Source: Octopus vulgaris
Lineage: Eukaryota
Reading direction: 5' to 3'
DNA: 64,000 nt
NCBI GenBank assembly: GCA_951406725.2
Contig: OX597819.1
Span: 64,728,001-64,792,000, forward strand
A program made the position numbers and the translations under genes. The notes under the pieces were generated by a model. It saw only the letters and a program-made list of their open reading frames with translations. It made no database searches and was not told the origin of the DNA. This document shows, piece after piece, positions 49,651 through 54,276 of this stretch (positions within the stretch are counted from its first letter, which is position 1; every line of letters begins with the position of its first letter).

Positions 49651-49901
49651 ATTTTTAAAAGTTAAGTGTAATAAAAAAAAATTTATAATTGTTTCTTAGT
49701 AGTCTCAACAGAGTCTAGGTGGTGGTGTTTTGTGAAGTGGGGGGAGCATAATGGTTGTCTTGTGCGTTGACTAGAATCGTTGGCTGCCAACGATCCTAGT
49801 GAACGTACAAGACAGCTATTTACAGTTCTATATTTAAGAGATGAGGAATTATGTACATTATTTGCATTTCACCGATATTTGTCCTCATCTTTTTGCTGTT
49901 A

Positions 49902-49930
49902 ACACAAGGTTTCGAGCCTTCATCAAGTGT
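49902..49930 (-). ncRNA. Hammerhead relic with collapsed stem II
   Basis: Minus: acac-TTGATGA-aggctc-GAAA-cc-TT-gtgt; stem I is acac/gtgt. Confidence 0.5.
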
Positions 49931-50003
49931 CTTCGGAAAATTTCGAACCTGCGTTCTCATTCCTAAGGTATTTTTCAATGTTATCATTATTATTATTATT
50001 ATT

Positions 50004-50078
50004 CAGGTCACTTCCCGGAATCGAACTCGGAATCTTGGGGCTAGTAGCCTGCGCTCTTAACCACTACGCCATATGCCC
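50004..50078 (-). promoter_or_regulatory. tRNA-like unit with Pol III A and B boxes
   Basis: gggcataTGGCGTAGTGGttaagagcgcaggctactagccccaagattccGAGTTCGATTCCgggaagtgacc. Acceptor and anticodon stems are imperfect, so it is not called a tRNA gene. Confidence 0.75.
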
Positions 50079-50110
50079 GCGGGTGATTTTTATGGGCTGA
50101 ATTTTAGGGT

Positions 50111-50413
50111 TTATAAATCTAATATTTTCCTATCTTTCCTTAATACCAGTTCCCATATACTACTCATACCTGCACTCGGTCTGCTTAGGTGGTTGTTGTG
50201 TCCTAAAACATGTGTTGCATCTTTTAGACTTGGTATTTTCCAATGGTGTTCGCTATCTATTATTTTAACTTCATCGCACAGGGGGAGATGATCAACATTT
50301 TCCCAAACATGTCCAGGTATACCCGACTTATCAATATCTTCTCGTATAAGAGCTTTGTGAAGTTCGCTTACCCTTATTTTGATGGGCCGGCATGTTTCCT
50401 CTTTGTATAACTT
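50111..50413 (-). pseudogene. Penelope GIY-YIG endonuclease C-terminal portion (100 open codons, no start)
   Basis: KLYKEETCRPIKIRVSELHKALIREDIDKSGIPGHVWENVDHLPLCDEVKIIDSEHHWKIPSLKDATHVLGHNNHLSRPSAGMSSIWELVL...* fits YxGETxRxLxxRxxEH..KSxxAxH..R..KEA of PLE endonucleases. Not in the ORF track. Confidence 0.85.
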
Positions 50414-50825
50414 CAGAACGTAAAGACAGGCGCGATACTATAAGCATTACGCCTGGCGTACTTACATTCCTTATTTCTGTATTGCCCACAAGGGGCTGAA
50501 CATAGAGGAGACAAACCAAGGCAGGCAAAGGGATTAAGTTGCTTACATCGACCCCAGTGCGTAACTGATGCTTAATTTATGGATCCCGAAATGATGAAAG
50601 GCAAAGTCGACCTCAGCGGACTTTGAACTCAGAACATAAAGACAGACAAAATGCTGCGGAATTTGAACTCAGAACGAACCGGCGGACGAAATACCTATTT
50701 CCTAACTACCCACAAGGGGCTAAACACAGATGGGACAAACAAGGACAGACAAACTCAGAACGGCAGCCGAAATACTGCAATGCATTTCGCCCGGCGTGCT
50801 AACGTTTCTGCCAGTTCACCGCCTT
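50414..50825 (-). mobile_element. SINE family A, multimeric
   Basis: gaaaggcaaagtcgacctcagcgg..tttgaactcagaac, ending gctaacgtttctgccagttcaccgcc. Confidence 0.85.
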
Positions 50826-51464
50826 CTTTTTCGCGCATATTAGATCGCCACTTCCGTCTTTGCAATATGAACTTGTATTTCGTATTCCAAGTTCGATTTC
50901 ATTCCTGGTTTGCTTTCCTTAACAATTATCTCTGTTCTTTGTTTCACAACTCATCCCCTCTCTGTTTGGCCGCATTACAGTTTTCACCATATTCCTTTCT
51001 CATATACCCATCACTTTGTACTTTGTACTATACGAGGCGTGATTTTATAAAACATATCAGCTAGATACTTTAACCTCTTTCGATTTTATCATTATTACCC
51101 TCCCCTCTCTCGTTGTTCCCCTTTTCTTCTAAAAACGCCTAAAATCTGGTAATATACCCACATGGTATTTCTTTGCAGTTCTGTACATGACACTTTTATC
51201 CCACAACGGTTGTCTTCCTTTGCAGCCCCTGCTACATGTAACCGGTCTCACCTAATCAGGCCTTTCTCATCCAGAGCAGATGTGGGACAGGCGCTTAACC
51301 TAATCCTGACTCCGTACTCTTTCCTGTTCTGTTCAATCTGATACGCTGACCTCTTCCGTTCATCTATCTACGCATTATTACTCAACCAATAAATGATGTT
51401 CAGTTACCAATTGCTGTTCCCCTTACTTAAGTGTTAGGGTTAGGGTTGAGACCTTAGTTTCATA

Positions 51465-51585
51465 GAGCTCACTTTGAGCTGAGATCGGAAAATTCCTGCT
51501 GTGATCCAAACTGCCTTCTTTCTTCTGTTAAACTCGTCCTCCGCGTTCATCTATTCACATCCTTAATTTGTGCACAAAAACAAAA

Positions 51586-51626
<41 letters not shown>

Positions 51627-51812
51627 TCATTCCGCTTACTCTACCCTTTAATAGCCTTAGTTTCTTACAGCACTCTCTTTGAGCTGAGATCGAAAAATTT
51701 CTGCTGCGATCCAAACTGCGTTCTTTATTCCATGGAACTCGTCCTTCGGATTCACCTATTCACATCTTTAATTTATACACAAAAACTATTCATTCACACA
51801 CACACACACACA
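51465..51812 (+). repeat. Diverged tandem duplication (~200-bp period), each unit ending in (CA)n
   Basis: ctttgagctgagatcg.aaaatt.ctgctg.gatccaaactgc occurs at ~51472 and ~51677. Confidence 0.85.
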
Positions 51813-54276
51813 TTCGACCATCTCCTAGAAAACAAAGCAAATAAAGCTAAATATATGACAATGTTTACTTTCCTCGTTCTATTTTTAATTTAGTCTTGAT
51901 TTAACCACTAATGACTCAACAGGAAAGAAAGAAAACGAAGCAAAAGAACAAGACGAATATTTCTTTTCTAAAAAGAAAACCTGTTAAAATACATTCAGAC
52001 GTGACGTCTTCATAAAGAAAATTAAAAAGAAATTCTTTAAACAAATTAATTATTCGAATTATTTTTAATAACGGTTCAATTTCTGCTATTTTGGGAAGTA
52101 AGTTGATTTTACAAATTCAATTAGCTACCATTATCACACTACGCCACACCAAAATGCTACACTCCATGTAAACTGACCTACAGATAATTTGAATTAGAAT
52201 TTTGCGTTTCTATTTTTCTCTTCGACCATATTTATAGAAATTCTGTATTCCACAATTACCTTATTTACACTTTCTCTTTTCAATTTTCAATTTAGTGATG
52301 AGTCAGTCAATCTTCTTTCAATCCCTGATGAATTCATATTCATTTTTTACACACTGGTAATTAAAATTTTCCGTTGTATTTCAACCACATTTCATGCACA
52401 TCCATGTTATAACATTCTGTAAGATTTCTTATTTCTTAGAATTCCAATAACGTCGTAAGTCACTAACCTCGATTTCAAATATCAATCAAATTTATTAATG
52501 GGGTTTAGAACATACTTATATAAGAGACAGATTTTCAGTCTTTAATCACGCAAATAGATACCTATAAACATCTCTTTTATTTCATATCGCGTCTGCTTAA
52601 CAAAACGAGTGAATGGCCTTCAGTTTGGAAGTAGAACCTTATTTCAATCTCTGATATTTCTAATTCACTGAAATTAGATTAAAAGAAATTCGAAACTTAT
52701 AATGTTCTTATGAAACTAATTTGTACAGAATTTTAATAATACAGAAATATCAAGCCAAGCTTGAAAGCTTCTCAGGCTGGATGCTAGCAAGTTTATGGGG
52801 TAATCAGGAGAGAATGCACGTCGTTTAGGAGCCTTCCATTCGAAACTAGCACTGCACACCAGTCCTCCTCACTGAAATGAATATCTCATATTAATTTCAT
52901 ATATCGTTTGCAAATTGTGACTAAACGGGAGCAGATCATGATGTTCCATATGCTTCACTGTAAAATTTGATTCGTAATATTGGGTACGATATCATCTATT
53001 ACCTTGATTCCAATACTTAAATGATAATAATTTTCTTAACGATCAGGATGAAAAATTCAAAATTAACCTTAGCAGGATTTGTGTTAAGAACATAAAAGTC
53101 TGCAATTGAATAGGCCAGTATATTTTTTCCAACACTCTATGTATTAAAAATCTCAATCGTAGCGAAATATTATGTATACCGTCTCTAAACGTTACGAGTT
53201 AGTTATTGACGATAGTAGGTGGGAGCCGAAGTTATGTTGAGATGACATTTATTTCACAGTAAGAGAACACACATTAGGCTTTTTCAAGAGTATTTGAAGA
53301 GAAACCGGCTATGCACAAATATGTTACCCTTAGACGAAAACCTTTACGTCAATGCTGACTGATATTGTAGTCTACACTAACATACAAAGCATAGAAATGA
53401 TAAAGCATATGTGAATGACACAAGCTTAACATAACGGTATTATGACAGCCCATCCACTGTTTTGTTCTTCCAGATTTCTCTAATAATGTTTAGAATGATC
53501 TGTCGTTATATTAGGAGAGAATCAGGTGCAGATAATAATTTAATCGGTTATAAAAATCAGCTACAAATTATCGCATTGGATGAATAGGCGTCCGTTTTCA
53601 CAATTGCAAGGAAAGACGAAAGTAAATAACTGAAAAGTGAACATCTGGATGATAAGGACATTCTTACCTTTAATATAAAACTCTCTTAAGTAAATGAAAG
53701 ACGCTTCAAGACTTCACACGAAACATGGCGTGACAATTAAGCAACTTTCAGAAAAATTAAGATATATCAAAGCGTAATTCCCATTGAAAATTGCAAATAA
53801 ATACATTAGTGTTATTAAGTATATTTTTTCAGAAACATTTGATTCTGTTTTCGATTTCATTGTACTGCAATTCCCTATACTGACGTCGGCTTTCAAAAGA
53901 ATAAGGGTGCATCTGTAGGAGTAATCACTTCCCAGAGAGAGGAGCAAAATATTGAGTATTATAAATTATCATTTTGAAAAAATAGAAGTGTCCACCACAA
54001 GCACTGGCATTGCTGTTTAAAATTTGATCTGGAGCAACACAACAACGACGGAGACCTTCGAGGTGACAACACTTTGCTGAGTTACTTCAGAGAGAGCTAT
54101 TAATAAAGTGGAAGCGTAAATTACACGCGTTCTAGTTTGTTTCAATTATTCGATGCAATTCGTCAAGTAAACATTAATTGGTCAGCTTTACTATATATTT
54201 TTCAAATGTACTGACATTCAGTTACATCGGCAAATAATAATAATGATAATAATAATAATAGTAATATTAATAATGA

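What the first reader, a model, noticed from the sequence alone, without database searches (positions are those of the whole stretch)
49820..50413. Penelope element whose 3' repeat carries a tRNA-like Pol III promoter directly upstream of a hammerhead motif
Seen: on the minus strand a GIY-YIG C-terminus stops at 50111. About 30 bp later a tRNA-like unit with good A and B boxes begins, followed by (AAT)n, a second B-box-like ggttcgaaat, a hammerhead relic (49902-49930) and a closing gatgagga/tcctcatc hairpin. Known: PLE pseudo-LTRs encode minimal hammerheads, and the Schistosoma Sm-alpha repeat joins a tRNA-like head to a hammerhead. Inference: the pseudo-LTR may be a promoter-plus-ribozyme cassette. 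It could drive the next tandem PLE copy by Pol III, trim its 5' end, and also spread alone as a SINE/retrozyme. This would link PLEs directly to ribozyme SINEs. This particular hammerhead copy looks inactive.
Basis: partly seen in the sequence, partly recalled or inferred. Interest (0 to 1): 0.8.

Follow-up and report, generated by a model that had tools for sequence, protein, structure and literature searches.

The report
Penelope retrotransposon with a tRNA-derived head
A Penelope-type jumping gene carries a tRNA-like head just ahead of its hammerhead ribozyme motif, and most genomic copies that keep the head begin right at it, which likely marks a captured RNA polymerase III promoter, something I did not find described for this class of element.

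Summary
Window 49820-50413 (minus strand) is a decayed, 5'-truncated copy of an old, high-copy Penelope/Poseidon-type retrotransposon family. The tRNA-like head is part of the element: it follows the ORF end in 30 of 30 and again in 30 of 30 independently anchored copies. Other copies keep an intact minimal hammerhead; this copy's is broken.

The repeat is also the element's 5' end: head, (AAT)n, ATG, then the hammerhead inside the reading frame. Solo head-plus-hammerhead units dominate: 24 of 30 head-anchored copies begin 0-7 nt upstream of the head, and exact counts are 1671 for the head against 447 for the adjacent spacer. The 2.6-kb sense strand has no shared TTTT terminator.

Best reading (about 0.6): a SINE-type Pol III promoter sets the transcript start, and the solos are short cDNAs of that RNA's 5' end. 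Pol III use is inferred; no assay or read data show it.

The parts
50111..50413 (-). 5'-truncated end of the PLE ORF (C-terminal part of the GIY-YIG-type endonuclease) with stop TAA at 50113-50111
   Evidence: 65% identity to L013; window copy begins about 50413; other copies run further upstream
50079..50110 (-). Spacer between stop and head; in other copies its last 6-7 nt form a palindrome with the head start and hold the inferred transcription start (-6)
50004..50078 (-). tRNA/SINE-derived head, 75 nt, cloverleaf eroded
   Evidence: ARAGORN and Rfam negative
50061..50071 (-). A box (starts at tRNA position 8)
   Evidence: sequence; matched in 148 of 211 full heads
50018..50026 (-). B box (starts at tRNA position 53)
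   Evidence: sequence; matched in 138 of 211 full heads
49980..50003 (-). (AAT)n run, variable in length, often hit by later insertions
49958..49960 (-). ATG that in tandem or full-length copies opens the PLE ORF through the hammerhead
   Evidence: open for 110 codons in L277, L294, L299 of 13 printed
49940..49949 (-). Second B-box-like 10-mer; lacks C61 and lies in the reading frame, probably not a promoter box
   Evidence: sequence
49901..49931 (-). Minimal type I hammerhead relic; broken here, intact in many other copies; predicted cut between 49906 and 49905
49839..49890 (-). 9-10 bp stem-loop; about half of all copies end in its loop (first inferred RT start)
49820..49850 (-). About 30-nt PLE 'tail' up to the second 3' end (second inferred RT start)

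Best explanation
[quoted passage not shown] Shown: the unit order is head, (AAT)n, ATG, hammerhead within the frame, stem-loop and tail, RT, GIY-YIG, stop, short spacer, next head. Also shown: two fixed 3' ends, a sharp pile-up of 5' ends at the head, and no shared TTTT on the sense strand. Inferred, by analogy with the anole element PAc (PMC11167929): the element's protein starts reverse transcription inside the RNA at the stem-loop and tail. On the first repeat of an RNA this yields a 250-350 nt cDNA that runs off the RNA's 5' end, often folds back, and inserts as a solo head-plus-hammerhead unit. On a downstream repeat it yields ORF-bearing, 5'-truncated copies like this one. The solos would be SINE-like by-products of the same masters, not a self-propagating family. 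The hammerhead would cut inside the ORF and does not define most copy ends.
For: The head follows the ORF end in 30 of 30 (first 30 of 447) and in 30 of 30 hits of an outgroup protein, L387 keeping only 5 nt of it. 24 of 30 head-anchored copies (first 30 of 632) begin at -7..0. Of 41 hammerhead-anchored arms still extending at +4, 27 end within 17 nt: 3.9% per nt against 0.31% inside the head and 0.05% upstream. 7 of 8 inspected -13..-20 calls are fold-backs at the same spot. Genome-wide exact counts: spacer 447, head 1671, hammerhead 4080, tail 5295, reversed controls 0. Several copies without fold-back start exactly at G-6 (L199, L114, L139), 13 nt before the A box, and keep the 2-nt leader of the PLE context, so their end is upstream of tRNA position 1. 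Shared T4 runs number 0 in 2634 positions against 5.1 expected (iid) or 3.8 (Markov, P 0.024). A second, head-less PLE family in the genome has 10 in 2433 nt (Fisher P 0.04). 3' ends are bimodal, 47 and 42 of 93, like the two PAc RT starts.
Against: There is no direct evidence of Pol III use. RNA-seq reads (runs X21-X23, organism B, not shown to be the window's species) lie in both directions about equally, 78-79% run on into unlike sequence, and none pile up at a start or end. The T4 signal is weak: codon shuffling expects only about 1.3 per kb, and other LINE-like ORF fragments are also T4-poor (L103 0, L141 0, L115 1, L150 1, L194 2). 16 of 49 arms without the spacer show fold-back on the palindrome, and an ATT lies just upstream, so structure or endonuclease cutting could add to the boundary. 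Among copies holding the ORF start, 5 of 8 that reach the head run on upstream, so longer RNAs or homing into older copies also occurred. No head-less sister family was found, so capture of the head is not shown. The head count used CpG-tolerant letters and the spacer count did not, which inflates the 3.7-fold step by roughly a third (my estimate).
Confidence: 0.6

Rival explanations
1. The head is a passenger relic of an old SINE insertion. The 5' boundary is made during insertion, by cDNA fold-back on the TGCCC-AC-GGGCA palindrome or by the element's endonuclease cutting at the ATT just upstream, on long Pol II read-through RNAs.
For: Fold-back signature in 16 of 49 arms; PAc cuts ATT near its ORF-pLTR junction (PMC11167929); 24 of 86 insertions have no head, many starting in the AAT run; cloverleaf lost.
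Against: 33 of 49 arms were not classed as fold-back and many join unrelated flanks at -6..0; ends at -8 to -12 are rare; RT crosses the palindrome in hundreds of copies (447); both boxes keep tRNA spacing while the stems decayed.
Confidence: 0.2
2. The RNA does start at the head, but from a TATA-less internal Pol II promoter as in D. virilis Penelope; the tRNA-like boxes are inherited or act only through TFIIIC as a chromatin element.
For: The only dissected Penelope promoter is LINE-like and internal (PMC2377424, abstract); an ORF is more easily translated from capped RNA (general knowledge); T4 absence is weak.
Against: The start lies at SINE-like distance from the A box; no T4 over 2.6 kb while the head-less family has 10.
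Confidence: 0.13
3. One reading: the head-plus-hammerhead unit is a self-propagating ribozyme SINE or retrozyme whose ribozyme trims the RNA ends.
For: Solos dominate; 3 of 97 arms start at C3+38/39, next to the cut at +36, and three internal junctions fall near it (L272, L281, L287).
Against: No solo-specific fixed allele; 2 of 93 in direct tandem; 3' ends lie 50-90 nt past the cut; solos stop at the RT starts and lack the downstream ORF segment that PAc needs on its template.
Confidence: 0.07

Closest known systems
Poseidon PLE of Anolis carolinensis, PAc (PMC11167929; parts 1-2 of 4 of the text read)
   Same: RT plus C-terminal GIY-YIG, repeat overlapping the ORF start, hammerhead cut inside the ORF, two RT starts bounding a tail, uncut RNA as template.
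   Different: No tRNA-derived head or Pol III promoter is described for PAc in the parts read.
D. virilis Penelope (PMC2377424, abstract) and Chlamys-3_cRei (PMC8557442, passages)
   Same: Transcription start inside the pseudo-LTR, internal promoter.
   Different: Their promoters are LINE-like, with a 5'UTR intron; here the start coincides with A/B boxes. An intron was not tested.
Schistosoma Sm-alpha repeats (review PMC6765202, passages)
   Same: Pol III-type promoter followed by a type I hammerhead.
   Different: Sm-alpha is non-coding and tandem, and cleavage puts the promoter at the 3' end of monomers; here the unit is the 5' end of a coding PLE and copies are not cut at the ribozyme.
TRIMp3 elements Cassandra, Helenus, Ajax (PMC10886601, passages)
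   Same: A small-RNA-derived Pol III promoter in the terminal repeat of a non-LINE retroelement, proposed to arise by SINE insertion.
   Different: Those are non-autonomous LTR elements of at most about 1.3 kb, and the author expects autonomous partners to use Pol II; here the head sits on a 2.6-kb protein-coding PLE.
Animal non-LTR retrozymes (PMC7229834, passages; bioRxiv 10.64898/2026.07.22.740005, part 1 of 5 and passages)
   Same: Short PLE-related units with a type I hammerhead.
   Different: They are defined by tandem arrays and circular RNA; the preprint has no occurrence of 'tRNA' or 'promoter'. Here units are dispersed singles or inverted pairs.

Membership tests
Penelope-like element, Penelope/Poseidon type | Single ORF with RT | tested here: met
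   RVT_1 E 5.8e-8 in L013; 153 RT matches in G000
Penelope-like element, Penelope/Poseidon type | C-terminal GIY-YIG endonuclease | tested here: inconclusive
   Motif visible in L011/L013 (motif form recalled); no Pfam hit there; weak hit in relative P0050
Penelope-like element, Penelope/Poseidon type | Partial tandems, inverted 5' copies, 5' truncation | tested here: met
Penelope-like element, Penelope/Poseidon type | Optional 30-40 nt tail (two 3' ends) | tested here: met
   47 and 42 of 93 ends in two clusters about 30 nt apart
Penelope-like element, Penelope/Poseidon type | No zinc finger in the RT-EN linker (unlike Neptune/Nematis) | tested here: met
   Read from the L013 translation; the second family has one
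Penelope-like element, Penelope/Poseidon type | Placement in an RT tree with named references | not tested
   No named references were available among the hits
Minimal type I hammerhead of PLEs (PMC4209133) | Core CUGANGA and GAAA-UH, long helix II with a 5' unpaired base, 4-5 bp helix I | tested here: met
   Family; unbiased 38 of 71 arms keep both core halves. Not met in the window copy. No Rfam hammerhead hit
Minimal type I hammerhead of PLEs (PMC4209133) | Self-cleavage, as monomer or dimer | not testable with these tools
   A palindromic ACGU is present; only 3 of 97 ends lie near the cut
tRNA gene | Cloverleaf and model score | tested here: not met
tRNA-derived SINE (SINE2) | tRNA-derived head with A and B boxes | tested here: met
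   best non-family hits are resident SINE heads, E 4e-5
tRNA-derived SINE (SINE2) | No internal oligo-T terminator | tested here: met
   criterion as used in PMC4494074
tRNA-derived SINE (SINE2) | Transcription by Pol III | not testable with these tools
   uninformative
tRNA-derived SINE (SINE2) | Independent non-autonomous lineage | tested here: not met
   No fixed allele between 144 solo and 83 ORF-linked copies
tRNA-derived SINE (SINE2) | Target-site duplications | not tested
   No systematic search was run
Non-LTR retrozyme | Tandem units each with a hammerhead | tested here: not met
   2 of 93 with a second same-strand hammerhead within 700 nt
Non-LTR retrozyme | Circular RNA | not testable with these tools
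   no suitable reads

The most novel reading that the evidence does not exclude
An autonomous, protein-coding Penelope element was transcribed end to end by RNA polymerase III from a captured SINE head: its whole 2.6-kb sense strand was kept free of TTTT terminators, its uncapped RNA was translated, and the same RNA shed over a thousand tRNA-plus-hammerhead units. This would be a direct route from PLEs to Sm-alpha-like ribozyme SINEs.
Probability: 0.3. Interest if true: 0.85.

Novelty: new variant of a known kind. Interest (0 to 1): 0.62.

Why it matters
How PLEs are transcribed is known for very few elements, both LINE-like or Pol II-marked. A tRNA-type head at the mapped 5' end gives a precise, testable start site and would extend Pol III promoter capture (Cassandra, Helenus) to a coding retrotransposon, which the TRIMp3 paper expects not to happen. 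The copy-end statistics also match, in a second genome, the internal-initiation model shown in vitro for the anole element, and explain how a PLE can litter a genome with units that annotators would call tRNA SINEs.

Tried and rejected
ARAGORN and Rfam found no tRNA or hammerhead; folding z-scores of head and hammerhead were not significant. The parent tRNA was not settled: best 49 of 73 to Arg tRNAs among only 30 fetched; resident SINE heads scored better. No free SINE with this head and another shared body was seen among 476 unique profile hits in 1.43 Mb of loci, but these loci were mostly chosen by this family; no RNA holder listed. RNA reads look like passenger transcription and decide nothing. 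RNase P-like cutting at tRNA position 1 was rejected as the main cause because many copies keep leader bases upstream of it. A PDB sequence search gave nothing. Earlier-findings look-ups were empty. Not in print as far as searched. Repbase, Dfam and SINEBase could not be searched, PMC4795812 and PMC5785218 were not held, and no supplements were read, so the family may already be catalogued. Neighbouring SINEs recall octopus SINEs (memory, untested); I used that only to aim searches.

Full report
OBSERVATION. The head is not a tRNA gene. It is tRNA-like beyond its boxes: none of 300 shuffles with the boxes fixed reached its score against 30 genome tRNAs. Its best hits outside the family are heads of resident SINEs (E 4e-5), ahead of tRNA genes (E 0.04). 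The second 'B box' lacks C61.

THE FAMILY. The stretch is one of a large repeat family (7005 candidates, 40 scored) with variable 5' truncation and fixed 3' ends. Copy L013/L241 is near full length, with RT and a C-terminal frame 65% identical to the window ORF. Copies differ 3-10% from the commonest letter per column, so the family is old. Inverted 5' copies and partial tandems are common, as described for PLEs (PMC8557442, passages). The linker has no zinc finger, which points to Penelope/Poseidon; no tree was built.

THE HEAD IS INTRINSIC. The first 30 of 447 exact ORF-end matches are all followed by the head or part of it. So are the 30 best of 150 hits of an outgroup protein, one keeping only 5 nt. 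The hammerhead core with stem II has 4080 exact matches and 0 in the reversed control. Among 71 arms chosen by the tail alone, 50 keep CUGANGA, 38 also GAAA and 16 the full CpG-containing end. Its form (6-bp helix II with a 5' unpaired A, 5-bp helix I, palindromic ACGU) fits the PLE minimal hammerhead (PMC4209133, part 1 of 4 read). The window copy has lost C3 and 15 nt of stem II.

THE REPEAT IS ALSO THE 5' END. In copies holding the ORF start, the tail runs on into the protein N-terminus. An ATG after the AAT run opens a frame through the hammerhead; it is stop-free for 110 codons in 3 of 13 copies printed, and the others carry stops or frameshifts. 3' ends fall in two clusters about 30 nt apart (47 and 42 of 93), in the loop of and just past a 9-bp hairpin. 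This is the layout of the anole element PAc, where RT starts internally at two sites and ribozyme cutting is not needed (PMC11167929).

5' ENDS PILE UP AT THE HEAD. 27 of the 30 best hits for the head alone lack the ORF end upstream. Of the first 30 of 632 head-anchored copies, 24 begin at -7..0, 3 carry the ORF, 2 carry 37-44 nt of spacer and 1 is complex. In 93 hammerhead-anchored arms from the first 55 Mb of contig C1, 34 have no head. The end rate is 0.31% per nt inside the head, 1.3% at +5..+20, 3.9% at -12..+4 and 0.05% upstream of -30. Genome-wide exact counts are 447 for the spacer, 1671 for the head, 4080 for the hammerhead and 5295 for the tail; the patterns differ in tolerated letters, so the ratios are rough. 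Of 59 arms with an intact head start, 10 carry the PLE spacer, 16 a fold-back, 18 start at -6..-3 and 15 at -2..0 or elsewhere (a crude pattern classification). By the PAc model a solo is the cDNA from the internal RT start to the RNA's 5' end, so this pile-up marks the transcription start (inference).

TERMINATOR TEST. No TTTT run is shared by half of the copies in 2634 sense positions, against 29 AAAA runs. The expectation is 5.1 (iid), 3.8 (Markov, P 0.024) or about 1.3 per kb by codon shuffling, where decayed copies show 0.47. A second, young, head-less PLE family of similar T content has 10 in 2433 nt (Fisher P 0.04). However, five LINE-like ORF fragments (class judged from memory) are also T4-poor. 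This is compatibility with Pol III, not proof.

Only 3 of 97 tail-anchored arms start next to the hammerhead cut, with three more internal junctions nearby. No fixed allele separates 144 solo from 83 ORF-linked copies; most differences are at CpG sites and partly due to how the sets were anchored. Only 2 of 93 have a direct second hammerhead. Solos therefore work like SINE insertions but fail the SINE and retrozyme membership tests.

AGAINST MY READING. RNA-seq gave no start site or strand bias. Fold-back on the palindrome or endonuclease cutting at the upstream ATT could create part of the boundary. 5 of 8 ORF-start copies that reach the head run on upstream, against 9 of 47 in the general sample (P 0.02); this fits two RNA populations but also homing or more processive events. 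No head-less sister was found.

LITERATURE. Nine searches returned no PLE with a tRNA-derived head. Nearest are PAc, Sm-alpha (review PMC6765202, passages), TRIMp3 (PMC10886601, passages) and retrozymes. Passages of PMC6962438, PMC4494074, PMC4758252, PMC8969392 and 10.1101/596502 and the abstract of PMC2377424 were also seen.

VERDICT. A real, family-wide feature and a new variant of a known kind: a Poseidon-type PLE whose RNA likely starts at a captured Pol III-type head (0.6). Full-length Pol III transcription of the coding element is the bold case (0.3). Interest 0.62.

Noticed in passing
L432:2066-4498 (+); also L431, L433-L436: A second, young PLE family: at least 150 copies 97-100% identical over a 72-aa probe, open frames of 811 aa or more with RT, a CxxC linker and a weak GIY-YIG hit (Neptune-like), often in inverted pairs; no tRNA head after its stop.
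   Followed up: partly
L272, L279, L281, L287, L290, L296, L300: Internally deleted elements joining the first 250-480 nt of the ORF to a downstream repeat; three junctions fall near the hammerhead cut site.
   Followed up: partly
window 50414-50860 (-): Nested pieces of another tRNA-type SINE directly upstream of the truncated element; they recall octopus SINEs (memory, untested).
   Followed up: no
window 49743-49829: Short imperfect inverted repeat just downstream of the element (weak MIR9563 score).
   Followed up: no
window 51458-51893: Two diverged direct copies of a unit of about 200 nt, each next to a (GT)n run.
   Followed up: no
L184, L186, L194, L201, L379, L394: The (AAT)n run of the repeat is often interrupted by later SINE or LINE-like insertions.
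   Followed up: no
G000:C1 about 7.93, 8.94 and 9.05 Mb (L096-L100, L151-L155): Near-identical copies with shared flanks, probably local segmental duplications; they slightly inflate the ORF-linked count in the C1 sample.
   Followed up: no
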